A DNA stretch of 64,000 nucleotides. Origin: a virus. Lineage: Duplodnaviria; Caudoviricetes. The notes below the pieces were generated by a model, which saw only the letters and a program-made list of their open reading frames with translations, did no database searches and had not been told where the DNA came from. This document shows positions 50,439-61,469 of the stretch, piece by piece. Where the stretch lies: the IMG/VR virus record IMGVR_UViG_3300008107_006173. One strand, given 5' to 3'. A program made the translations under genes and the position numbers. The first letter of the stretch is position 1, and every line of letters starts with the position of its first letter.

Positions 50439-50494
50439 TATTTATACAGAAAATCTGTATAATTTTAATATAGCGAAAAAATTTTATTTGTCAA
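50439..50494 (-). promoter_or_regulatory. Tandem late (TATAAATA 50439-50446) and sigma70 (TTGACA-16-TATATT) promoters for hsp20
   Basis: Read directly from the sequence. Confidence 0.65.
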
Positions 50495-51354: not shown

Positions 51355-51466
51355 CTCCTTATTTCTCATCCTACATATACATTATAGCAAGATTTGAGCA
51401 GGGTGTCAACCACTTTTTGAGCACTTTTTTAGGGCTAAAAAGTTGTATAAAAACAACAACTTAGCT
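51355..51466 (-). promoter_or_regulatory. Early cassette: near-IHF site + TTGACA-17-TATAAT + conserved leader
   Basis: -35 at 51404-51409, -10 at 51381-51386, AAACAACAACTTA at 51451-51463. Confidence 0.8.
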
Positions 51467-51469
51467 AGA

Positions 51470-51718
51470 TTAATCGTAGCGTTTGCCCGGGTCGGGCTTA
51501 ATACCCTTTACATGATTGTCTGAATAGCAGTCAGGTTTGAAACTGGGGTCTTCAACAGCCTTTGCACCCTTAAACCTAAATTCATGACGGTATGCCCGTG
51601 ACCGCAATGCACTTTCGCAAGCAGCCTTTGATGGATATTGAATCTCAATCTTACCCACATAGTTTTCATCTGAGGGCAAATTGGGATTGACAAGAAAAAT
51701 AATTAACCAAAACTTCAT
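51470..51718 (-). CDS. Hypothetical protein
   Basis: Likely start MKFWLII (hydrophobic N-terminus); start approximate. Confidence 0.45.
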   Translation of the reverse strand: MKFWLIIFLVNPNLPSDENYVGKIEIQYPSKAACESALRSRAYRHEFRFKGAKAVEDPSFKPDCYSDNHVKGIKPDPGKRYD

Positions 51719-51966
51719 ACAAATATCCTTACTAGTCCATAACTGATAAACGATAAACAAACTATATTAACAACAAGCAGGGGTCGGTCCTGCATTTTAA
51801 CTGACGCCAACAACCACATAGCGGTACCGATCCAACCAAACACCAAATCAATAGCGTGAAGTTCGAATGCCCTAGAACCTGTTGCGATAATAATACAAAT
51901 CGTAGCCCACCATTTAATTAGGCTTAATGATGTGTCAGATGAATTCTGGTTCAATGTGTTTTCCAT
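51715..51966 (-). CDS. Small multi-TM membrane protein
   Basis: IKWWATICII..GWIGTAMW..DRPLLVVN. Confidence 0.6.
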   Translation of the reverse strand: MENTLNQNSSDTSLSLIKWWATICIIIATGSRAFELHAIDLVFGWIGTAMWLLASVKMQDRPLLVVNIVCLSFISYGLVRIFV

Positions 51967-52201
51967 GTGTTAGATTTGTATGCGTCTTATTTCCAAATGC
52001 CAGTTTGAATATAGCAAAGTCATCAGCCTTTTCAAACTCAGCAGTTACAACCAATTTTAGGTTGTATGTAGCAAAATCGTTATCCGTGTGTTTAACAAAC
52101 GAAATATCGATACCATGTTCAGCAGCCCAGGCCCAATAGGGCTCCAATGTATTGTGTATAGCAGCACCGTACATAATATCAATGCCGTCGCCATCGGGCA
52201 T
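51935..52201 (-). CDS. Small hypothetical protein (C-terminal motif family)
   Basis: AEFEKADDFAIFKLAFG; start refined to MPDGDG. Confidence 0.5.
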   Translation of the reverse strand: MPDGDGIDIMYGAAIHNTLEPYWAWAAEHGIDISFVKHTDNDFATYNLKLVVTAEFEKADDFAIFKLAFGNKTHTNLTHGKHIEPEFI

Positions 52202-52229
52202 TGTGGTGCGTATGAGATTGTGCTTAAAC

Positions 52230-52565
52230 TTAGTCACCCAACACCTTGTCAAGGTGCTTACAACGACCCCTAAACTGAAAGCCGCTACAGGTACAGGTCT
52301 TAGCATCAGGATCAACAAAGTAAGTATCACCCTTACTTCCCTTGACCTCAATCAAGTTAGACTCAACCTTTGCGTTGAACGGATTAGACTTGAGCTCAAC
52401 AAACTTACGACCGCGCTGATCAATAGCAACAGGCTTCTTAAAATACTGTGCAGGCTCTGTACCCCAGGGCATATATGCAACAGCCTTAGCACCGTCCATT
52501 AGGTACACATGATTAGGCTGACGATACTCAACGTCCCACTTAGTAATTTCTTGCACAGCAATCAT
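52230..52565 (-). CDS. SWIM Zn-finger protein
   Basis: [23 protein letters not shown]. Confidence 0.75.
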
Positions 52566-52566
52566 A

Positions 52567-52833
52567 TTAGAGAGACGCCGCGTAGTTCATCAGCGCAAGA
52601 ACATCTGCTGGACTTTGGTATCCCTGGACATCATCGTCCTTATACTGCACAAAGTTACCATCAGGATCCAACAGCGCAGTCTCGGCAGTAGTAGCAGTCA
52701 TAGGCTTACCCATGTTATCCAGGAAGCTCAAATCGTAATTACTACCATAGTTACCCGGGCCGAACTGTACACTTACTGTATAGCCATTGTCCAGTGTAAT
52801 GCTAAAGCCTTTGTTATCATTAATGCGAAACAT
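52567..52833 (-). CDS. Hypothetical phage protein
   Basis: [15 protein letters not shown]; SD AGGA. Confidence 0.65.
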
Positions 52834-52845
52834 AATTATATTCCT

Positions 52846-53547
52846 TTACAGCGATTTGTACGACTTAAACTGTTCAATAAGTTCTTTCTTAATTTCTTCC
52901 TTGTTAGACACAGTCAATCCAGTGACCTTCCACGTAAATCCGTTTGATTCTGCATGGAACGTAAGGTTTTTGCAATTATACTCAGCTTTCCCGAAACTAA
53001 TAAGTTTAACATTACATTTTGACATATCTGCTTTACCGTCATTGTTAACAATCGCAGTAGCAATGTTATTAGGATTAATTTCCTTTACAACCATATTAAT
53101 CATATTTGGAATAAACTTTTCCGCTAGTCCGGTTGTGAAAGCCTTTGCAAAATCTTTAAAAGGATTATCAGCTAAGTCTTTATCAAGTTCTTTGTTTAAT
53201 GAATCAATAAACACTTCGGAATATTCTGTAAGTATATCATTAGCATCCTTCCTAATGTTATCAAACTCTACATGATCTTCCAACATGTTTTTTATATCTT
53301 CTTTATTGTTTGATTCGACAGTAGATTTAGCATTATAAAGCGTAATGTACGGCGTTCCGGCATGAAAAATTGTTATACCTAAACCTACTAATACAGCCGA
53401 TGCAAGCATTTTCTTAAACTTACGCTTAGGAGCAGCAGGAGGAACAACAGGATTCTTTACAGCAGCATTCCTTTTAATCTCAATAGGTTTAGCTATTGCC
53501 TTGCCAGCGTAGCCTTGTTTGAAACCTTCTGTAAAGCTCTTAAACAT
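52846..53547 (-). CDS. Membrane-anchored DUF2939-like protein
   Basis: TM followed by TPYITLYNAK...HVEFDNIRKD. Confidence 0.5.
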   Translation of the reverse strand: MFKSFTEGFKQGYAGKAIAKPIEIKRNAAVKNPVVPPAAPKRKFKKMLASAVLVGLGITIFHAGTPYITLYNAKSTVESNNKEDIKNMLEDHVEFDNIRKDANDILTEYSEVFIDSLNKELDKDLADNPFKDFAKAFTTGLAEKFIPNMINMVVKEINPNNIATAIVNNDGKADMSKCNVKLISFGKAEYNCKNLTFHAESNGFTWKVTGLTVSNKEEIKKELIEQFKSYKSL

Positions 53548-53553
53548 TTGAAA

Positions 53554-53673
53554 CTCCTAATTCCTTACCCTACATATACAGTATAGCAGAACTAGGGCTA
53601 AAGTCAACCAAAAAGAAACGCTTGTAAATCAATGACTTACAAGCGTTCTTAGTTGTTTAAAATCAATGACTTA
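53554..53673 (-). promoter_or_regulatory. Terminator/IHF/sigma70 cassette
   Basis: 11-bp stem 53617-53647 with IHF consensus 53627-53639; second IHF site 53661-53673; TTGACT-16-TATACT. Confidence 0.85.
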
Positions 53674-53681
53674 CGTCTGTG

Positions 53682-56006
53682 TTAAAACTTAGTGGTTATT
53701 TCTACACCAAATGTTCTTGGAGCATTAAAGTTAGCATAGTCACCGAGTACAGTACCATTAGCGTTTGAGCGTCTAAAGATAAATGAGCTATTAAATAGGT
53801 TGCGTGACCATACTGCAACCGACAGCGGTTGATTAGCAATCTCAATACCTTCAAATGTTACACGACCATTAACAATGAAACTTGCTTCGCTCTTTACATT
53901 TTCATTATCAAATGCATATGCTGAAGAAGCATAGTTAGCATCAATGTGGAACTTTGCAATGGTATTAGAGTTACCAACAAAGGTTTGATAATCAATTGAC
54001 CCTGACAATGCATGTGTTGGAGTATAAACAACAAACACATCTTGATATATAGGAGTCGTGTTAGCTGGGTTCAATGATGCATTAAGTTGCTCTTGTACTG
54101 TGTTGCGAGCCTGAGGCATATCTACATCTGTATAAGCATATGACAATGTGCTTGAAAGGCCTTCTAATGGTTGAACAGTTAGATCTGCTTCAATGCCTCT
54201 GATCTTTGTTGTACCTTCAGCATTAACAGTTTCAAGTGTATTTCTAACTGTTCCGTTTGGTTGTGGAACAAAGAAGTTAAAGTCAACTTGGCTGTCACTT
54301 CTGTCCATCATATATGCAGCAAGATTAAAACGAACAGCACGATTAAATAGTTCCAACTTGGAACCAACTTCGTAGCTCTTAACTTCTTCTGGACCAAAAG
54401 AACGATAGTTCAACGAACGTGAGCTTGCACCACCTGCTCTGTATCCTGTTGTATACTTTGCATATACATTAATGTCTCTGTCAATGTCATAAGCAAGTGT
54501 TACAATTGGATCAAACCGCTTGTTGTTTTGATCAAAGGTAAAGTTAGTTGCTGCACCATTGACTTTGAATAGTGTACCATCTTTCTTGTCTTGAGTAAAG
54601 CGGCCACCTGCTGTGATATGTAAGTTATCAAAGTTATATGTACCTTGACCATAAACAGCATAGCTCTTAGCATATGCTATTGAAGCGCGGGCTACTGTTG
54701 CTAAAGGATAGGTAGCAGGATCAACAATAGTGTAACCTGTACCTGTTGCGTTCCACTTATTAGTGTTTGGTGTCTTTGCTTCGTCATTGGCACGCTCATT
54801 AAAATAATAAGCACCAAACACATAGTCTAAATTGTTAGTTGAACCAACAGCCTGTAGCTCTTGACTAAACTGACGTTGGTCCAATTTAGCGATAGAATAT
54901 CTACTAAAGGTTGCATTAGGTGTAAACACTGGTGTACGATTAGCACCACCCGAGTTATCAAACTGACGGTCGCTTACTGTACGCCATGCTGTAATTGAAC
55001 GAAGTTCCAAATCATCAGTGATACCATACTTCACAGTTGACACTACGCCAAATGTTTCGCCTACACTTGGTTCTTGTACAACGCCAACTGCTGCTACATC
55101 AGCACGTTCAGATTGAACCTTAACCATTGAAGGTAGAGGAGCAATAAAGCCAGAAGGAATTTTGTTTCCTGCTGCTGTAATTTGTGCAAGTGTTGCAACT
55201 GGACGATTGTATGGGTTATAGTTAATCAACTGACTTAAGAACGGAGTGTTGTTGTCACGACCGAGGTCTACTGCAACATCTGCTGTCAAGTTAGTAGTTG
55301 GTTCCCAACGAATAGCAGCACGACCACCATAACGGTGATAGTAGTTCCATCCATATTGACCTTCTAATGGATTCTTGGTTGTTGCTTCTTGATGCTGAAT
55401 AGAACCATCAAGCTTCACACTGAATCCTGCGAACTTAGGCAAGTTCAAACGCAAGTTACTGTTATAGGAACCGTAGTTACCAAAGCCAGTTGTTGCTGAA
55501 CCGCCCCATTCACCGGTTGGGGCTTTGCTGATAATATTAACAGCGCCACCTTCTGTGTTGCGTCCAAATAGTGTTCCCTGTGGGCCGCGCAATACTTCAA
55601 TGCGCTCAATGTCCAGGAACCCAGCATTAAGACCATGCTGACGACCTAGATATACGCCATCAATGTAAACGCCAACACCCTGTTCACGAGCGGGTTGGTT
55701 TGCATCACCAGGAACAATACCACGCATACCGACTGTAAGTGCAGACTGTCTAGATTCAAAAGTTGCTACTCTTAGACTTGGAATACCACCGTCTGATAAA
55801 TCAATCAAACTTTGTACTTGACGATTCTTGAGAGATTCGCTGTTCATTACAGCAATTGATATTGGTGTGTCTTGTAGATTGGTTTCTCTCTTTGTTGCTG
55901 TAACAACAATTTCTGCTACTTCTGCCATGTCAGCATTGTCTGCCGCATTGGCTGTTCCAAAAGAAAGCAGCGCCATTGCTGTTGCTATAATATATTTAAG
56001 TTTCAT
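53682..56006 (-). CDS. TonB-dependent outer-membrane receptor
   Basis: Signal peptide; EIVVTATKR TonB-box region; plug motif IEVLRGPQGTLFGRNTEGGAVNI; beta-barrel; C-terminal Phe (RTFGVEITTKF). Confidence 0.95.
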   Translation of the reverse strand: MKLKYIIATAMALLSFGTANAADNADMAEVAEIVVTATKRETNLQDTPISIAVMNSESLKNRQVQSLIDLSDGGIPSLRVATFESRQSALTVGMRGIVPGDANQPAREQGVGVYIDGVYLGRQHGLNAGFLDIERIEVLRGPQGTLFGRNTEGGAVNIISKAPTGEWGGSATTGFGNYGSYNSNLRLNLPKFAGFSVKLDGSIQHQEATTKNPLEGQYGWNYYHRYGGRAAIRWEPTTNLTADVAVDLGRDNNTPFLSQLINYNPYNRPVATLAQITAAGNKIPSGFIAPLPSMVKVQSERADVAAVGVVQEPSVGETFGVVSTVKYGITDDLELRSITAWRTVSDRQFDNSGGANRTPVFTPNATFSRYSIAKLDQRQFSQELQAVGSTNNLDYVFGAYYFNERANDEAKTPNTNKWNATGTGYTIVDPATYPLATVARASIAYAKSYAVYGQGTYNFDNLHITAGGRFTQDKKDGTLFKVNGAATNFTFDQNNKRFDPIVTLAYDIDRDINVYAKYTTGYRAGGASSRSLNYRSFGPEEVKSYEVGSKLELFNRAVRFNLAAYMMDRSDSQVDFNFFVPQPNGTVRNTLETVNAEGTTKIRGIEADLTVQPLEGLSSTLSYAYTDVDMPQARNTVQEQLNASLNPANTTPIYQDVFVVYTPTHALSGSIDYQTFVGNSNTIAKFHIDANYASSAYAFDNENVKSEASFIVNGRVTFEGIEIANQPLSVAVWSRNLFNSSFIFRRSNANGTVLGDYANFNAPRTFGVEITTKF

Positions 56007-56066
56007 ATGTCCTCCGTGTTTGATCGTTACAATTTGATTACAAATTTGACACCTTAAAAACGACGA

Positions 56067-56095
56067 ATCTCCAGGGACTTGCGTCCACTGGAGAT
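56067..56095 (-). terminator. GNRA hairpin in the TBDR leader (terminator or attenuator)
   Basis: ATCTCCAG(T)GGAC-GCAA-GTCCCTGGAGAT followed by TCGTCGTTTTT. Confidence 0.6.
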
Positions 56096-56171
56096 CCTGA
56101 ATTTTAAATTGTTATTTTTATTTAGTTAATGTGTTAGAATCATAATATATAGATAGGTAAAATGATCCAAA

Positions 56172-56675
56172 CTAACCAATTTGGTTTTTAGCTTGATCCA
56201 GCAAAGCAGGATCGGCTCTGGTAAGAACTTCAAGAAGAAGTCTTTTTTCTTCCAAGTATGTCCTAGCAAAGCCAGGATCAAACTCAACAATAGTTCTTGT
56301 ATTGCTGATCAAATCCGCAACCTTAATGGTCTGAGCAGCAGCAGGAGCAGCAGCACTATGCTGACGATCCAGTGCTTTACGAGTGCTACGATTACCATCT
56401 TCAGGCTTGCTAATGTCTGTTAGCCACAGCACCAAATCCGCAACCTCACTACCAAACAGTTCTTCCAGAACATCAACAGTAACTTCTGTGTCCTCTAGAA
56501 CATCGTGCAGTAGTGCAGCCGCAACCATTGCTTCAGTACCGCCCACACTGGCAACTAGTTCTGACACCTCGATAGGATGAACAACATACGGCTCACCGGT
56601 GTACTTGCGAGTTTGGCCAACTGCGGCATGAGCAGCAGTAGCAAACACTCGAGCTCTTTCAACAATGTTCGTCAT
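56172..56675 (-). CDS. Stand-alone RelA/SpoT-type HD hydrolase
   Basis: RKYTGEPYVVHP, AALLHDVLEDT, IKVAD..N; promoter TTGACA-16-TAATAT 6 nt before the ATG. Confidence 0.85.
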   Translation of the reverse strand: MTNIVERARVFATAAHAAVGQTRKYTGEPYVVHPIEVSELVASVGGTEAMVAAALLHDVLEDTEVTVDVLEELFGSEVADLVLWLTDISKPEDGNRSTRKALDRQHSAAAPAAAQTIKVADLISNTRTIVEFDPGFARTYLEEKRLLLEVLTRADPALLDQAKNQIG

Positions 56676-56712
56676 ATTTTTATATTAACACCTTTTAGAT
56701 AGATGTCAACCA

Positions 56713-57252
56713 TTAGTTCCTAACAGCTCTATACATTGCCCTAGCGCCCTGAGGGCCAGGGTGAATACCGTCTCCTCTAGAGTTTAATTCAGGAGAATAT
56801 TTTTCAAGCGGGCCTAAAAAAACCGCGCCCTCTTCTCGGGCAATAACTGCTAATCGCTCGTTAACATTTTGAGCATTAAAGTTAACACGATATGTACCAT
56901 ATCTGTTAGTAAGCCAAGGAGACTTTTGAGAACCGGTACCTACCAAATACACCCTCGCCCCTGCGGCTTTGAGTTTACGAATCTGTTCATAGGTACTATT
57001 GCTAGCACCACTACTAAGAATAACTGTAGCACCTTTGGCCTTGCCTGTGGCAATAAAGGTATTGATATAACCAATGATGGCTTTGGTGTCGCGGCCACCT
57101 TTACGCCAACGATTATTACCACCCGCATCCAAACTATTTGAGTTTGCAATACCAACTGCAATGCTGTCTCCTATTACATATGTTTCTGCTTGTGCAGGCA
57201 CACTAGCAACAGCAAACAACGCTGCCAAACTAATTACTAGATTCTTTAACAC
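56713..57252 (-). CDS. Exported SGNH/GDSL-hydrolase-like protein
   Basis: Signal peptide; VIGDSIA; DGIHP. Confidence 0.7.
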   Translation of the reverse strand: MLKNLVISLAALFAVASVPAQAETYVIGDSIAVGIANSNSLDAGGNNRWRKGGRDTKAIIGYINTFIATGKAKGATVILSSGASNSTYEQIRKLKAAGARVYLVGTGSQKSPWLTNRYGTYRVNFNAQNVNERLAVIAREEGAVFLGPLEKYSPELNSRGDGIHPGPQGARAMYRAVRN

Positions 57253-57267
57253 TATTAATTTCCTTTC

Positions 57268-57549
57268 CTAGTCTCCGCTGTCAATCTCGTAGCGGTCACC
57301 GCACTCACTACAGCGGTATTCTGTTAAACACCGACCTATTGTGCGGCTGGTGTACTTATGTGTGCAAGGATCGCCATTCTTGTTCAAACGAACTTGGCCA
57401 ATGCCATTACCATACATTTTTTGACCGCCACAGTTGTAACACTCTTTATGGGTTCGGTCTTTATTCCAACTGTATCGCTTATCATTATCTGTAAGCGGAA
57501 GTTTTCCGGTACCGTTACAAACAGGGCAAGTACCGTATTCAATATTCAT
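57268..57549 (-). CDS. Zn-finger protein
   Basis: CPVCNGTG, CYNCGG, CSECG. Confidence 0.65.
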   Translation of the reverse strand: MNIEYGTCPVCNGTGKLPLTDNDKRYSWNKDRTHKECYNCGGQKMYGNGIGQVRLNKNGDPCTHKYTSRTIGRCLTEYRCSECGDRYEIDSGD

Positions 57550-57771
57550 TTAGTGTACCGTATTAGTAAAAGGCGAAATGAGAATGTTTCTATCAGCTAG
57601 TTTAGCAGACAGCTCGTTCAACAATAGTTCTTGACTGTATGCTTCCAATAGTTCAAATGCGTATTCAATATCTTCGTCGCTCATTTGCTCATACCAGTCT
57701 TGAATGGTTTCAGGTGTAGCATTGAGCAAAAAGTTCAAATTATCTTTATCATGTTTATCCATTATGACCAC
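57550..57771 (-). CDS. Hypothetical protein
   Basis: 73-aa acidic ORF. Confidence 0.55.
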   Translation of the reverse strand: MVIMDKHDKDNLNFLLNATPETIQDWYEQMSDEDIEYAFELLEAYSQELLLNELSAKLADRNILISPFTNTVH

Positions 57772-57971
57772 CTCAATAGGAACCAGGCTAAATCCTGTTC
57801 ATTGGTAAAACGAATATAAAACAATCCATCATCTCGGAACGTCATGTTGTTTTCAATGCACCAGTCTTTGGCTCCCCACAGGGTATCCTGTACATTTTTC
57901 CAATCATCATAGCCAGCCTTATATTTCAGTTCGAGCTTATAAGGCTTACTATGTTCGCGAACCCACTGCAT
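57762..57971 (-). CDS. Small hypothetical protein (C-terminal motif family)
   Basis: YIRFTNEQDLAWFLLRWS. Confidence 0.6.
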   Translation of the reverse strand: MQWVREHSKPYKLELKYKAGYDDWKNVQDTLWGAKDWCIENNMTFRDDGLFYIRFTNEQDLAWFLLRWS

Positions 57972-58465
57972 TAAGCGTCCTCGGATTCGCGATCTTCAAG
58001 TACCTGTTCGACCATATCCAGCACCGGAGTATCTCCAAGCGATGCACCGTGGTCGTTTACAAACCAAGTACCGTTGATGAACAAGTAGTTATACTCTTCA
58101 CCAAACTCGTTTACAAATTCTGCAACATTGGGGAAGATGTTAGGAACGCAATTAGGTTCACCACGATCGCGACCGTAAAAGGTAGTCCAACCTTCAGTCT
58201 CAGACTTTGCATACTTAGCCATCAACTCATCAAAGTCAGGTGCTTCCTGCTTGAGTTCAAACTTGCTGAACGGATGATGTTCACCGATCTTAGAGCCCAG
58301 TGAACTAATGCTACCGAGCCCGATGAGCTCGCGTACCTTTTCTTCTGTGGTATAGTTCTCCATTAGAACCTTACCGTTGTGCTCCGGGTAACCATCCCAA
58401 TGACAGTATACCGCAGTAACCGAACCGTCCGTGTTGAGGACACCAATAGTTGAACGAGTAGCCAT
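57971..58465 (-). CDS. Conserved phage hypothetical protein (YCHWDGYP family)
   Basis: MATRSTIG..VYCHWDGYPEHNG; SD. Confidence 0.7.
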   Translation of the reverse strand: MATRSTIGVLNTDGSVTAVYCHWDGYPEHNGKVLMENYTTEEKVRELIGLGSISSLGSKIGEHHPFSKFELKQEAPDFDELMAKYAKSETEGWTTFYGRDRGEPNCVPNIFPNVAEFVNEFGEEYNYLFINGTWFVNDHGASLGDTPVLDMVEQVLEDRESEDA

Positions 58466-58482
58466 ATTACTTTCCTTCTTTA

Positions 58483-58968
58483 TTAAGCGGCCTGAAGGGC
58501 CTGTTCCAAATCTGCGTTGCTAAGAACACGACCATCACGCATCGTGTAAGTAGCGATATAATTCTCGCGGTCACCGCCCATGAGCATATCGTACTGCTCA
58601 GTCTTAGCAGCAATCTCCGAGCGCATGTAACCGTATTCGTCGTTCTTTACAGTTCGACGAGCGACCCAGCGACCCTGTTCCCAGTACAGCTCAAACGGGG
58701 TTTCCCATTCTTCGCAGACCACAGCATCGTCATCGAGAATGCTCCAATCCAGAATGTACTCTTCAAAACTGCCATTGCGCTCTTCGATGAGCGCGGTGAG
58801 AGTGGGGACACCAACCTCCTTGATGCGGAGCGTCTGCTCTACGCTGAGATTGGGCACCACATAAGTACTGCCACCCTTGAACTTCCAGTACTGCGGACAC
58901 TCGCCTTTGCCGTCCCAATCGTGAGCACCGTAGTTTTCTCGGATTTGGGTCTGGATAACAATCTTCAT
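58483..58968 (-). CDS. Early hypothetical protein
   Basis: Start MKIVIQ after the conserved leader; ENYGAHDW..YWKFKGG. Confidence 0.7.
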   Translation of the reverse strand: MKIVIQTQIRENYGAHDWDGKGECPQYWKFKGGSTYVVPNLSVEQTLRIKEVGVPTLTALIEERNGSFEEYILDWSILDDDAVVCEEWETPFELYWEQGRWVARRTVKNDEYGYMRSEIAAKTEQYDMLMGGDRENYIATYTMRDGRVLSNADLEQALQAA

Positions 58969-58974
58969 CGCTAA

Positions 58975-59116
58975 CTCCTTATTTCTCATCCTACATTATT
59001 AGTATAGCACCGCTAGAACAGAAGTCAACCTTTTTCTGCCATTTTTTATCAAAAAAGAACCCCTTGCAAATCAATGACTTACAAGGGGCCTTATCTCTAA
59101 CAAAATCAACAACTTG
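58975..59116 (-). promoter_or_regulatory. Terminator/IHF/sigma70 cassette
   Basis: Stem 59060-59088 (G.U pair on minus); IHF consensus at 59069-59081 and 59104-59116; TTGACT-16-TATACT. Confidence 0.85.
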
Positions 59117-59128
59117 CGTCGTTGACTG

Positions 59129-59449
59129 TTACGCTGCTACAGCATCAACCGTAGGGGCAGTAACAGGAGCCTCGTAGCTCGCAAAGTAGCGAACCGGGCA
59201 CTTCTGCGGCCATACACGACCCTGTCGAATCTCAACCGTTACGCCACGCTCCTTCTGAGCATTAACATAAACAGCCATATCCGCATCTTCCTCGAGGTAA
59301 GTAGTCTTACCCTTAACGAAAGAGAACTGGGAGATCTTGTCTGCAACGCCGAGCTCGCTGAGTTCGCGAGTCTTAACTGCGAGCCAAGCATGACCCGGGT
59401 CAGAGTGGATGAACTTCACAACATTTGTCTTAGACTTAGCCATTTTCAA
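59129..59449 (-). CDS. Conserved hypothetical protein (DPGHAWL/YLEED family)
   Basis: Motifs visible; promoter TTGACA-16-TACAAT at about 59502-59529. Confidence 0.65.
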   Translation of the reverse strand: MKMAKSKTNVVKFIHSDPGHAWLAVKTRELSELGVADKISQFSFVKGKTTYLEEDADMAVYVNAQKERGVTVEIRQGRVWPQKCPVRYFASYEAPVTAPTVDAVAA

Positions 59450-59536
59450 TTACCTCTATTAAAGTTAAACAAACACACACATCAACATCATCACAATATC
59501 TATTGTACTATCAATAGATCCCTTGTCAACCGCTTT

Positions 59537-59884
59537 TTAATCTAAACGCGAACCAGCGTAAGCGGTGAAACCATACTTCTTAAATACTGCGGCAGCAGCA
59601 ATAGCACCTGCTTCGAGCGTGTCAATGTTCTGACAGGGGAACTTGGAGGGGTTCCACATCTGTAGCCCGCCGCTGTAGCTCTTGGTAATACCCAGAGCAG
59701 CAAGAGCCTTGCCCAACTTGGTGTTACCCTTAATTCCGTAAATCTCAACCCAAGCAAAGCCACATCCGTACTGGTCCTTGCCGCCCAACTTCTCCTGGAA
59801 GAACTTGCTAGCTGCTGCGGATGCTGCGGATTGGGCTTCAGCAACAATGCTGGGAACCATTTCGGGGGAAACTGCAATCGTCAT
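59537..59884 (-). CDS. Early hypothetical protein
   Basis: Start MTIAVS after the conserved leader; CGFAWV motif. Confidence 0.7.
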   Translation of the reverse strand: MTIAVSPEMVPSIVAEAQSAASAAASKFFQEKLGGKDQYGCGFAWVEIYGIKGNTKLGKALAALGITKSYSGGLQMWNPSKFPCQNIDTLEAGAIAAAAVFKKYGFTAYAGSRLD

Positions 59885-59890
59885 TTCAAA

Positions 59891-60000
59891 CTCCTTATTT
59901 CTCAACCTACATTATAAGTATACCATCTTTTCCCTAAAGGTCAACCACTTTTTGGCATTATTTTAAGAAAAAGATGTTGTTAAAAAACAACAACTTAGCT
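59891..60000 (-). promoter_or_regulatory. Early cassette: near-IHF site + TTGACC-16-TATACT + conserved leader
   Basis: AAACAACAACTTA at 59985-59997. Confidence 0.75.
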
Positions 60001-60447
60001 GCCCGTAGTGAGCAACAGAGTGCTACCAACCTGCTTAAAACGCTCAATAAACACATGGTGCTCGTCCCCGCTGTCGCGGATGCAAGCGTCGGCAGCAACA
60101 TATAGCGCCGCATATGTGAGCCCGTTAACGGACTTTACAATGGGCTTATCGCCCCAATGATCTTTATAGGTCACCGTAGTGATACCTTCAAACGGATGCC
60201 GCTCGCTGAGGTCGCTTACCTCGTAGATGCTCCAAATAGTCCGAAGACCAAGAGCGTCGCCGACGCTTGAAAAATGCTGGTGTTTACGCTCAAAATCATT
60301 GCTTTCTTGAGCGTAAGCATCCTTGAGCGCACCACGAATTTTTTCAACTGCGGTTTCAACGTCTGTATCATCCTTATACTGTAATTCCCACAGTACATTA
60401 TGGATGGTTTTGAAATCGTCAGCTTTTAGGGTCACATCGCAGTTCAT
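59995..60447 (-). CDS. Early hypothetical protein
   Basis: 150 aa, SD AGGAG. Confidence 0.65.
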   Translation of the reverse strand: MNCDVTLKADDFKTIHNVLWELQYKDDTDVETAVEKIRGALKDAYAQESNDFERKHQHFSSVGDALGLRTIWSIYEVSDLSERHPFEGITTVTYKDHWGDKPIVKSVNGLTYAALYVAADACIRDSGDEHHVFIERFKQVGSTLLLTTGS

Positions 60448-60453
60448 TGCTTT

Positions 60454-60568
60454 CTCCTAATTCCTTACTATGTGTACAGTATAGCTTCTTTTTCAGAACT
60501 GTCAACCAATAAAAAACCCTTGCAAATCAATGACTTACAAGGGTCGCTAGGTCGCTAAGTTGTTGATT
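60454..60568 (-). promoter_or_regulatory. Terminator/IHF/sigma70 cassette
   Basis: Stem 60516-60544; IHF 60525-60537 and inverted IHF 60556-60568; TTGACA-16-TATACT. Confidence 0.85.
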
Positions 60569-60685
60569 TTTAATACCATTCTTTAACGTCCCGTGCAGCT
60601 AGATATGCAAGTATTAAGCATAATGCTGTTAACCACGGGTATGTCGGAAAGAACAGCAAAGCGAGGATGAGCAGTAAACAACCCA

Positions 60686-61039
60686 TCAGTTGCGCCTTTC
60701 AGAAACCTTTTTAGCTTCCATAAAAAGTGTAGGGATGAGTTCGGTCACCTGATGGAGCAAAAGCTCTTTGTGACCGTCAATGAAGAACCAATCACGTTTG
60801 TCAATAGCGTTCTTTCTACCCCAACGATATATGTTACGAAGCGCCTGTTCGTTATCATTGGCGCCTGGAATGACGTACCCATCGTTGATCTTTTCTTCCA
60901 CCCACCAGTCTTCATGAAGGCATGGCTTATCATTGAATGCGCGGATAGGCTGTCCTAGAAGAGTAGGAAATCGATCATACATGAATTTACAAAGGTCGTT
61001 GACCGTTGCATCTTCAGTGGGATATCGAAAGACTTCAGC
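60686..61039 (-). CDS. Hypothetical protein
   Basis: ORF track 60686..61096; likely GTG start near 61039. Confidence 0.5.
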   Translation of the reverse strand, partial: AEVFRYPTEDATVNDLCKFMYDRFPTLLGQPIRAFNDKPCLHEDWWVEEKINDGYVIPGANDNEQALRNIYRWGRKNAIDKRDWFFIDGHKELLLHQVTELIPTLFMEAKKVSERRN

Positions 61040-61469
61040 CACGACGCATCTGACTAATTTCAATAGCCTGCTTTTGATCAATAACAGGAACAGCATTGCT
61101 CTTATGCATTGTAGCGATGCCCTTAATCAGTGTGCCAGTATACTTCTGCGGTTCTTTTTTAGCCGTGCTAGACGCATTACCAAAACCATTACCACTAGGA
61201 TACAGTTCTTTGTGTTGACGAATTCGGTTCATTATTTCATCGTCTCTAGCCGCTAGCGGAACAAACTTGGGCTTGTCAGTCTTCACGCGACCATGTAGTG
61301 CATCCACATATTCTTCAAATGTTGGCTTAGCCAAACCAAGCCGTTTGTTTTGCTTGCACTTCTCACGCCAGCCGTCCATCCAACGATTCATTTGAGATTG
61401 TGTAACCTTAGTCTTACGCTTACGATAATTGGTAGTAGTTAGATAAGGTCCTACAAGATGCATACTCAT
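61035..61469 (-). CDS. Conserved T4-like phage hypothetical protein
   Basis: YTGTLIKGIATMHKSNAVPV motif. Confidence 0.7.
   Translation of the reverse strand: MSMHLVGPYLTTTNYRKRKTKVTQSQMNRWMDGWREKCKQNKRLGLAKPTFEEYVDALHGRVKTDKPKFVPLAARDDEIMNRIRQHKELYPSGNGFGNASSTAKKEPQKYTGTLIKGIATMHKSNAVPVIDQKQAIEISQMRRG

What the first reader, a model, noticed from the sequence alone, without database searches (positions are those of the whole stretch)
51355..60568. Repeated terminator-promoter cassettes whose hairpin loop is an IHF consensus site
Seen: three intergenic units (53554-53673, 58975-59116, 60454-60568) share one design. Each has a 10-11 bp stem with the identical loop ATCAATGAC, a minus-strand U-tract, then a near-perfect sigma70 promoter and SD. 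The stem arms differ between copies but stay complementary; two carry a G.U pair valid only on the minus strand. The loop plus flanks reads AATCAATGACTTA, matching the IHF consensus WATCAANNNNTTR. A second perfect site lies 31-35 bp away (inverted at 60556). Two more cassettes (51451, 59985) carry 1-mismatch sites. My rough estimate is about 5-6 chance matches per window, versus six perfect sites within about 200 bp here. Known: PeSL promoter-stem-loop cassettes drive module shuffling in RB49/phi1. Inference: one sequence acts as both RNA terminator and DNA-bending site, either tuning early promoters or creating recombination hotspots.
Basis: partly seen in the sequence, partly recalled or inferred. 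Interest (0 to 1): 0.8.

Follow-up and report, generated by a model that had tools for sequence, protein, structure and literature searches.

The report
Phage terminator hairpins doubling as IHF-type sites
A freshwater T4-type giant phage separates some early genes with repeated terminator-plus-promoter units, and the tip of each terminator hairpin is a conserved DNA motif, probably a site for the host bending protein IHF, that also occurs in many other phages and behind tRNA genes in bacteria.

Summary
The shared "loop" ATCAATGAC is not a 9-nt loop. On the minus-strand RNA it pairs further, giving 14-17 bp stems with an AUU triloop, a U tract, a strong sigma70 promoter and a shared leader.

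The units have the PeSL layout known from T4-type phages. Three of the five larger differences from an 82-88% identical relative lie at cassette edges.

The new part is the motif. The hairpin top occurs exactly in 20 viral contigs and in more than 120 bacterial genome contigs. In the bacteria it is usually the terminator behind a tRNA gene, often next to an integrase.

The core TAAATCAA-N-GACTTR also occurs without any hairpin and in either orientation. It lies upstream of early promoters in other phage contigs, most often centred near -60. In the bacterial family of a Rhodoferax genome it lies beside perfect DnaA boxes.

Together with the match to WATCAANNNNTTR, this makes a protein-binding DNA site very likely. 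Host IHF is the best candidate, but binding was not shown and its effect on promoters is unknown.

The scan had noted this same stretch in an overlapping window, not on other DNA.

The parts
53661..53673 (+). Unit 1, distal motif copy (site B1, AATCAATGACTTA). It is not in a hairpin and is a direct repeat of the hairpin copy 34 bp away.
53616..53648 (-). Unit 1 intrinsic terminator. It has a 15-17 bp stem, an AUU triloop and a following U tract. Its apex (53627-53639) is motif copy A1.
53580..53607 (-). Unit 1 promoter TTGACT-16-TATACT. The leader and AGGAG (53558-53554) follow, then the ATG at 53547.
59104..59116 (+). Unit 2 distal motif copy (site B2, AATCAACAACTTG). The relative G010 has AATCAACGACTTA here; both changes are allowed by the consensus.
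59058..59090 (-). Unit 2 intrinsic terminator: 15 pairs, AUU triloop, -21.6 kcal/mol. Its apex (59069-59081) is motif copy A2.
59001..59028 (-). Unit 2 promoter TTGACT-16-TATACT. The leader and AGGAG (58979-58975) follow. The likely start is the ATG at 58968.
60556..60568 (-). Unit 3 distal motif copy (site B3, AATCAACAACTTA), inverted relative to the hairpin copy. It begins at the stop codon of a 38-codon upstream ORF.
60515..60545 (-). Unit 3 intrinsic terminator: 14 pairs, AUU triloop. Its apex (60525-60537) is motif copy A3.
60478..60505 (-). Unit 3 promoter TTGACA-16-TATACT. The leader and AGGAG (60458-60454) follow, then the ATG at 60447.
51381..51466 (-). Derived cassette. It has a consensus promoter (51381-51409) and a weak A/U-rich hairpin whose 5' arm is a 1-mismatch motif copy (51451-51463).
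59917..59998 (-). Derived cassette. It has a promoter (59917-59944), a weak hairpin and a 1-mismatch motif copy (59985-59997). The copy is conserved in relative G010.
52849..53553 (.). Synteny break just downstream of unit 1. The 233-aa gene here is replaced by an unrelated 286-bp segment in relative G010.
60570..61041 (.). Synteny break ending exactly at site B3. These 470 bp (two small ORFs) are absent from relative G010.
51418..51469 (.). Synteny break inside the 51381-51466 cassette. Relative G010 has about 1.25 kb of other DNA here.

Best explanation
The three units are PeSL-type early-gene cassettes of an uncultured freshwater T4-type jumbo phage.

Layout, read on the minus strand:
1. 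The unit starts at or just after the stop codon of the upstream gene with one copy of a 13-15 bp motif, AAATCAA-YR-ACTTR, in either orientation.
2. About 23-35 bp further on comes a 14-17 bp intrinsic terminator. Its apical 15 bp are a second copy of the motif, TAAATCAATGACTTA.
3. The U tract follows and also supplies the A/T-rich stretch upstream of the promoter.
4. Then come TTGAC(A/T)-16-TATACT, a shared leader and the SD.

On RNA, the hairpin stops transcription arriving from upstream. This is shown by structure and by covariation in homologues.

On DNA, the two motif copies are binding sites for a sequence-specific protein. The protein is most probably host IHF, which would bend the DNA just upstream of the promoter, centred near -60. 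This step is inferred.

The likely consequences are architectural. They could be support or insulation of the early promoter, help for recombination, or both.

Because the cassettes are repeated, they also act as short homologies at which genes are swapped, inserted or lost. This is shown by comparison with a relative.

The same dual-use hairpin occurs behind tRNA genes at the junctions of integrated elements in many bacteria. There, an IHF site next to the recombination core is expected.
For: Terminators and promoters.

The hairpin is real. In 118 distinct homologues the stem below the conserved 21-mer covaries, and a U tract follows with 7.2-7.4 T in 10 nt.

Conservation beyond chance:
- The exact 23-mer occurs in 20 IMG/VR contigs.
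- The 21-mer occurs in more than 120 bacterial contigs, with less than 1 expected.

DNA-level motif:
- 14 of 22 distinct cassettes carry a second copy upstream of the hairpin (start 20-32 nt before the conserved 21-mer), forward or reverse.
- Another phage record (G008) has 4 direct copies and 3 mixed copies with no hairpin.
- In 240 distinct promoter-like sites of phage loci there are 70 motif hits within 300 nt upstream. The reversed control gives 0.
- 20 of those hits have centres 20-29 nt upstream of -35. They occur in both orientations, with or without a hairpin.

IHF-type contexts in bacteria:
- 88 of 121 hairpins lie within 40 nt of a tRNA or tmRNA 3' end.
- In 6 of 10 sampled loci the first large ORF downstream is a tyrosine integrase.
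- In 301 genomes of the family of a Rhodoferax genome, 111 have the 21-mer with at most 3 mismatches. The reversed control gives 1 hit.
- In those matches the conserved positions form YAAGTC-N-TTGATTTA, while the flanks vary.
- 8 of 20 fetched loci of that family have a perfect TTATCCACA DnaA box within about 110 nt. IHF sites accompany DnaA boxes at E. coli oriC, datA and DARS2 (PMC8488378).

Consensus: the motif fits WATCAANNNNTTR, the established IHF consensus (own knowledge).

Shuffling: three indel or replacement edges against relative G010 abut cassettes. Metagenome contigs share only the 32-nt hairpin and diverge on both sides (table 7).

The PeSL layout matches PMC4122927 and PMC2839356.
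Against: - No binding or expression data exist.
- The motif is narrower than the E. coli IHF consensus: GAC or AC is fixed in the N positions, and a TA lies 5' of it. A different protein is therefore possible.
- Proximal sites keep the same position in both orientations. That would shift an off-centre IHF bend by about 14 bp, so no single bending geometry is conserved. Part of this constancy may simply reflect tight terminator-promoter packing.
- Spacing between the two copies varies (about 23 to 35 bp).
- Only 5 of 16 strong promoters in the window carry the motif.
- Many bacterial hairpins are in Bacteroidota. There the degenerate motif is not above background, and a classical IHF heterodimer is not established.
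- Some hairpin variants in bacteria keep pairing but break the IHF consensus.
- The host is unknown.
Confidence: 0.55

Rival explanations
1. The motif is a DNA site for a protein other than IHF. It could be a phage-encoded early regulator or recombination helper, or another host factor binding as a class-I-type activator near -60.
For: - The motif is more specific than WATCAANNNNTTR.
- The hairpin version is a near-palindrome, TAAGTCA-T-TGATTTA.
- The centre lies about 25 nt upstream of -35 regardless of orientation, as expected for a dimer bound at about -61.
- The PeSL authors themselves suspected a stem-loop-binding protein (PMC2839356).
Against: - The same motif is enriched in bacterial chromosomes that carry no such phage, so the protein must be host-encoded and widespread.
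- Non-hairpin copies are clearly asymmetric (AAATCAA on one side, ACTTA on the other). Symmetric variants are a small minority.
- The contexts (tRNA/integrase junctions, DnaA-box clusters) are those of IHF.
- No HU/IHF-like or other obvious regulator was found next to the cassettes, although only 64 kb of the genome was available.
Confidence: 0.2
2. There is no protein site. The hairpin top is conserved only because one efficient terminator module has been copied between cassettes, phages and integrative elements by recombination. The match to the IHF consensus is incidental.
For: - The cassettes are repeats that recombine.
- Metagenome contigs share the bare hairpin.
- Hairpin variants exist with compensatory changes that break the IHF consensus.
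- An IHF core placed symmetrically in a hairpin fixes most of its own N positions.
Against: - The motif persists where the hairpin is absent, and in both orientations.
- Flanks diverge while the core stays.
- The reversed-pattern controls are 0 and 1.
- The motif is linked to perfect DnaA boxes.
- The second copy varies mainly at positions that the consensus leaves free.
Confidence: 0.13
3. The conserved apex acts at the RNA level. It would be a recognition element for an RNA-binding protein or nuclease, for example in 3'-end processing or protection of tRNA and phage early transcripts.
For: - Strand bias is strong. All 22 phage hairpins, and 82 of 88 tRNA-linked hairpins, are read in the sense that gives GUAAGUCAUUGAUUUAC.
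- The G.U pairs exist only in that sense.
Against: - Second copies and promoter-proximal copies occur in both orientations, often unpaired.
- Copies beside DnaA boxes lie in non-terminator settings.
- No Rfam family matches.
- The strand bias is equally explained by terminator efficiency, or by a fixed site orientation within att sites.
Confidence: 0.1

Closest known systems
PeSL (promoter-early stem-loop) cassettes of T4-type phages RB49/phi1, PST/T4 and nt-1/KVP40 (PMC2839356, PMC4122927)
   Same: Both are composite units. A stem-loop terminator lies directly upstream of an A/T-rich stretch, a sigma70-type early promoter, the SD and the start codon. Both are repeated in a variable region among small ORFs, and indels and replacements between close relatives lie at the units.
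   Different: Described PeSL stem-loops are simple G-run/C-run or AGNA/TCNT stems with no conserved apex, and no IHF-type motif has been reported for them. Here the apex is one fixed 15-21 nt sequence shared with distant phages and with bacteria. A second, unpaired copy of the motif belongs to the unit. Mini-circles were not tested.
IHF sites next to the recombination core of integrase att sites (lambda attP H'; tRNA-targeting integrative elements)
   Same: The identical hairpin lies between a tRNA 3' end and integrase genes, with direct repeats that look like arm sites. The motif fits the IHF consensus.
   Different: The phage here is of lytic T4 type, and the units sit between ordinary early genes, not at an att site. 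Fusion of the site with the tRNA terminator hairpin has not, to my knowledge, been described.
E. coli RIP/RIB elements (BIME-1): an IHF site flanked by REP palindromes at operon ends (own knowledge; reviewed in PMC3184786)
   Same: An IHF consensus is combined with extragenic palindromes at the 3' ends of transcription units, and the element is repeated in the genome.
   Different: In RIP the IHF site lies between two hairpins, not inside one. RIP is chromosomal and not joined to a promoter, and the sequences are unrelated. The hairpin studied here is absent from E. coli chromosomes.
Neisseria Correia elements, 155-bp form (PMC2229807)
   Same: A small repeated intergenic element that combines a functional IHF site, promoter sequences and a transcribed stem-loop.
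   Different: Correia elements are MITEs with 24-bp terminal inverted repeats and TA duplications. The units here have no such ends, and they spread by homologous exchange at most.
IHF-stimulated early promoters of temperate phages (lambda pL, Mu Pe) and SPO1 TF1 (own knowledge)
   Same: A bending protein of the HU/IHF family binds specific sites at or upstream of phage early promoters.
   Different: In lambda and Mu the sites lie further upstream (about -86, from memory) and are not terminators. TF1 is phage-encoded, and no such gene was found here.

Membership tests
PeSL cassette | Stem-loop terminator immediately upstream of a sigma70-type early promoter, with SD and start codon, as one repeated unit | tested here: met
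   There are three full units and two derived ones.
PeSL cassette | Host genome is a T4-type phage and the units lie in a variable region among small ORFs | tested here: inconclusive
   The window has a clamp loader (phrog_168) and tail-fibre or baseplate-like proteins. TATAAATA is depleted, 1 against 7 expected. The T4 core genes were reported by earlier unchecked notes only. The 51-61 kb region is variable against relative G010.
PeSL cassette | Indels and replacements between close relatives abut the units | tested here: met
   The breaks are at 51418-51469, 52849-53553 and 60570-61041.
PeSL cassette | Recombination between units yields mini-circles | not testable with these tools
   One metagenome contig joins 59913 back to 58973 with only 34 nt on the short side. 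This is too weak to count.
IHF binding site | Match to WATCAANNNNTTR with an A/T-rich 5' flank | tested here: met
   There are six perfect sites, with 5' flanks TAAA, AAAA or GTAA.
IHF binding site | Occurs above chance and in settings where IHF is known to act | tested here: met
   for enrichment. for tRNA/integrase junctions. for DnaA-box clusters (compare PMC8488378).
IHF binding site | Bound and bent by IHF, with function dependent on ihfA/ihfB | not testable with these tools
   No biochemical or genetic data exist and the host is unknown.
Intrinsic (Rho-independent) terminator | Stable G+C-containing hairpin followed by a U tract on the transcribed strand, with covariation in homologues | tested here: met
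Intrinsic (Rho-independent) terminator | RNA 3' ends map to the U tract | tested here: inconclusive
   Only assembled metatranscriptome contigs were available. One contig spans unit 2, which may be read-through or DNA.
MITE / Correia-like element | Terminal inverted repeats and a target-site duplication | tested here: not met
   The units have no terminal repeats. The breakpoints are those of homologous exchange.

The most novel reading that the evidence does not exclude
One compact 'dual-coded' module, a terminator hairpin whose apex is a high-affinity IHF site, is shared by tRNA-targeting integrative elements of several bacterial phyla and by lytic T4-type freshwater phages. In the phages, paired IHF sites at each cassette would make early-promoter activity depend on host IHF. 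They would also make PeSL-type gene shuffling depend on it, giving the long-suspected 'stem-loop-binding protein' of PeSL recombination a name.
Probability: 0.3. Interest if true: 0.8.

Novelty: new variant of a known kind. Interest (0 to 1): 0.62.

Why it matters
PeSL cassettes are the proposed engine of gene shuffling in T4-type phages, but no protein partner or sequence-specific element has been tied to them. This finding supplies a defined 15-bp motif with a testable candidate, IHF.

It shows that the same motif is used with or without the hairpin in several uncultured phage lineages.

It links the motif to a previously unremarked, widely conserved terminator behind tRNA genes at the junctions of integrated elements.

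It also gives a probable high-affinity IHF consensus for Comamonadaceae-type bacteria, next to DnaA boxes.

If confirmed, this would be a clear case of one sequence read as RNA structure and as a DNA protein site, and a handle on host dependence of early transcription in environmental jumbo phages.

Tried and rejected
- Rfam, gathering thresholds, whole window: no family matched.
- Megablast and blastn of the region against cultured phages: no relative, only an 86-nt weak hit. The hairpin alone also found no cultured phage.
- tblastn of the 696-aa protein found nothing. SufS gave only distant hits.
- No whole genome is held for the window. Cassette counts for the full genome could therefore not be made, nor a full search for a phage HU/IHF gene.
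- An HMM built from 10 bacterial HU/IHF proteins found none in the window or in the fetched phage loci. Pfam PF00216 found none in two phage records.
- E. coli genomes: only five plasmids carry a 24/25 match and no chromosome does. This was not informative.
- Full-text search for the motif as a string, and for IHF plus terminator, tRNA and attP: nothing relevant.
Later analysis showed that many of those loci carry the motif in front of promoters.
- Extra IHF-consensus sites within 300 bp of the bacterial hairpins are only about twice background.
- Degenerate 15-mer in Chitinophagaceae: at background level.
- Metatranscriptome contigs cannot show RNA ends. Parts without cover mean nothing.
- An RNA antiterminator pairing between site B (forward) and the hairpin was considered and rejected. 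It exists only in the inverted arrangement and is simply the motif's own complement.
- TyrR, LacI-type, FNR, MotA and DnaA boxes were considered for the motif. They were rejected on spacing or sequence, from memory only.

Full report
**What is in the window**

The window is 40% G+C, and nearly all genes lie on the minus strand. It encodes a clamp loader, tail-fibre and baseplate-like proteins, a ClpB-like ATPase, SufS and a TonB-dependent receptor. TATAAATA occurs once against about 7 expected. Earlier unchecked notes of this scan describe the genome as a T4-type jumbo phage. No cultured phage is similar at the DNA level. The sequence occurs in freshwater, lake and 'fungus' metagenomes of 18 studies.

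**The observation**

The three units are exactly as described. WATCAANNNNTTR occurs 13 times against 5.46 expected, and six of these lie in the three units. AATCAANNACTTR occurs 7 times, six of them in the units.

On the minus strand each unit contains, in order:
- a motif copy;
- a hairpin followed by a U tract;
- TTGAC(T/A)-16-TATACT;
- a conserved leader and AGGAG.

One correction is needed. The shared ATCAATGAC is not an open loop. GUC pairs with GAU, so the RNA hairpins have 14-17 pairs and an AUU triloop, at -18.7 to -21.6 kcal/mol. The plus strand folds much less well.

Two further cassettes (51381-51466 and 59917-59998) have the same promoter and leader. They have weak A/U hairpins built on a 1-mismatch copy of the motif. 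Eleven other strong promoters in the window lack the motif.

**They are PeSL-type cassettes**

The published PeSLs of T4-type phages are composite units. A stem-loop terminator lies just upstream of an A/T-rich stretch, an early sigma70 promoter, the SD and the start codon. They are concentrated in variable regions and lie at indels between close relatives (PMC2839356, PMC4122927).

A relative is available: IMG/VR contig 3300005758_001162 (handle G010), 75-88% identical across the aligned blocks. It carries the same three units. Three of the five larger differences in the 48-62.5 kb stretch abut cassettes:
- about 1.25 kb of other DNA replaces 51418-51469;
- a different short segment replaces the 233-aa gene at 52849-53553, directly downstream of unit 1;
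- 60570-61041 is missing, with the break exactly at the distal motif copy of unit 3.

Metagenome contigs from two DNA runs match only the 32-nt hairpin of unit 3 and diverge on both sides (table 7).

**The hairpin top is a widely conserved sequence**

The exact 23-mer of the hairpin top occurs in 20 viral contigs. In nearly all of them it is a hairpin followed by a U tract and a TTGAC promoter, although the flanks, leaders and genes differ.

The taxa include Saprospiraceae, Chitinophagaceae, Flavobacteriales, Bacteroidales, Balneolales, Comamonadaceae-type Betaproteobacteria and some Gammaproteobacteria, isolates included.

In these bacterial contigs:
- 88 of 121 hairpins lie within 40 nt downstream of a tRNA or tmRNA gene;
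- 82 of those 88 are read in the same sense as in the phage;
- in 6 of 10 sampled loci the first large ORF beyond the hairpin is a tyrosine integrase, of three different N-terminal types. Others are island cargo;
- direct repeats that look like arm sites follow the hairpin, and some hairpins follow only a tRNA 3' fragment.

Below the 21-mer the stem covaries freely and a U tract follows. The hairpin is therefore a working terminator in both settings.

**The motif is a DNA element in its own right**

- In 14 of 22 distinct phage cassettes a second copy lies upstream of the hairpin (its start 20-32 nt before the conserved 21-mer), forward or reverse. It varies mainly at the positions the IHF consensus leaves free: CAAC, TGAC, CGAC, TAAC, TAGT.
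- Another phage record (G008) has four direct copies within 200 bp upstream of one promoter and three mixed copies upstream of another, with no hairpin. Further records have single unpaired copies.
- Over 240 distinct promoter-like sites in the fetched phage loci, the motif occurs 70 times within 300 nt upstream. The reversed control occurs 0 times. Twenty copies have their centre 20-29 nt upstream of the -35 hexamer, near -60. They occur in both orientations, paired or unpaired.
- Many of these loci were fetched because they contain the motif. Its presence there is given, but its position relative to promoters is not.

**Evidence on which protein binds**

The motif fits WATCAANNNNTTR, the established IHF consensus (own knowledge).

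In 301 genomes of the family of a Rhodoferax genome, 111 carry the 21-mer with at most 3 mismatches, against 1 hit for the reversed control. The matches keep YAAGTC-N-TTGATTTA (that is, TAAATCAA-N-GACTTR) while the flanks vary. The asymmetric form far outnumbers the symmetric variants.

Of 20 such loci fetched:
- about eight lie at tRNA 3' ends, some overlapping a different terminator hairpin;
- eight have a perfect TTATCCACA DnaA box within about 110 nt. Some of these are tandem units of inverted DnaA boxes plus the motif, or lie between hemE and priA.

IHF sites accompany DnaA boxes at E. coli oriC, datA and DARS2 (PMC8488378), and they flank the core of integrase att sites (own knowledge).

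That bacterial genome has IHF alpha-like and beta-like genes. The window and the phage fragments encode no HU/IHF homologue.

Host IHF is thus the best candidate, but several points argue for caution:
- The motif is narrower than the E. coli consensus.
- In Chitinophagaceae the degenerate motif is at background level.
- Some hairpin variants keep pairing but break the consensus.
- An off-centre IHF bend would move by about 14 bp when the site is flipped, yet flipped sites keep the same position.
- The two copies within a unit are 23-35 bp apart.

**Mechanism proposed**

Shown:
- the cassette layout and terminator structure;
- repetition of the cassettes, and exchange at their edges;
- conservation and positional preference of the motif.

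Inferred:
- protein binding, with IHF as the protein;
- bending just upstream of the promoter;
- any effect on transcription, insulation or recombination.

**Novelty**

The cassettes belong to a known kind, PeSL. Three things are new to my knowledge and to the literature I could search:
- the sequence-specific IHF-type motif built into the terminator apex, with a second copy beside it;
- its use across uncultured phage lineages;
- its identity with a conserved tRNA-flank terminator at the junctions of integrated elements.

The closest analogues that combine IHF sites with palindromes and promoters are E. coli RIP/BIME-1 and the Neisseria Correia elements (PMC2229807).

Noticed in passing
L300, L307, L311, L312 (bacterial loci, family of a Rhodoferax genome): Tandem units of about 125-170 bp. 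Each has two inverted DnaA boxes (GGTTATCC...TGTGGATAA) followed about 25 nt later by the TAAGTNNTTGATTT motif. They resemble DARS/datA-type DnaA-control loci with an IHF site. In L300 and L307 (two genomes) a short-chain dehydrogenase gene lies next to the units.
   Followed up: partly
L295, L296 (bacterial loci, tRNA-Val flank): A different way to fuse the motif with a tRNA terminator. TAAATCAAGGACTTA overlaps the 5' arm of another hairpin (GGACTTACGA/TCGTAAGTCC) that is followed by a U tract.
   Followed up: no
L230 and L154, L189, L196, L227 (bacterial loci): The hairpin also follows bare tRNA 3'-end fragments (14-20 nt), and L230 has two copies. The repeat at both island ends may therefore include the terminator. 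Whether the hairpin is native or island-borne is unresolved.
   Followed up: no
window 53682-56006 (-): An intact TonB-dependent receptor gene (Plug plus beta-barrel domains) in a phage. One unnamed proteobacterial genome has a 43% identical full-length homologue.
   Followed up: partly
window 60571-60687 (-): A 38-codon hydrophobic ORF (MGCLLLILALLFF...) ends in the TAA that starts the distal motif copy of unit 3. It lies in the 470-bp segment that the relative lacks.
   Followed up: no
several cassettes: window 60568, L018, L031, L055, L086, L120, L126: In the forward arrangement the motif begins with the upstream gene's stop codon (TAA-AATCAA). The cassette thus brings its own stop, terminator, promoter and SD.
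   Followed up: no
window 58969-58989 (-): The shared leader contains an in-frame ATG upstream of the SD-linked ATG at 58968. ORF callers therefore over-extend this gene by 7 codons.
   Followed up: no
window, whole: TATAAATA occurs once (50439-50446, before the hsp20-like gene) against about 7 expected. This fits avoidance of stray T4-type late promoters.
   Followed up: partly
window 59913 / 58973: One metagenome DNA contig joins 59913 back to 58973, that is, the leader of one cassette to the leader of another, in the order expected of a circle or duplication. Only 34 nt lie on the short side, so it may be a paralogue alignment.
   Followed up: no
NZ_CP043822.1 and four other E. coli plasmids of 13-40 kb: These carry a 24/25 match to the hairpin top in unannotated DNA. 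No E. coli chromosome does.
   Followed up: partly
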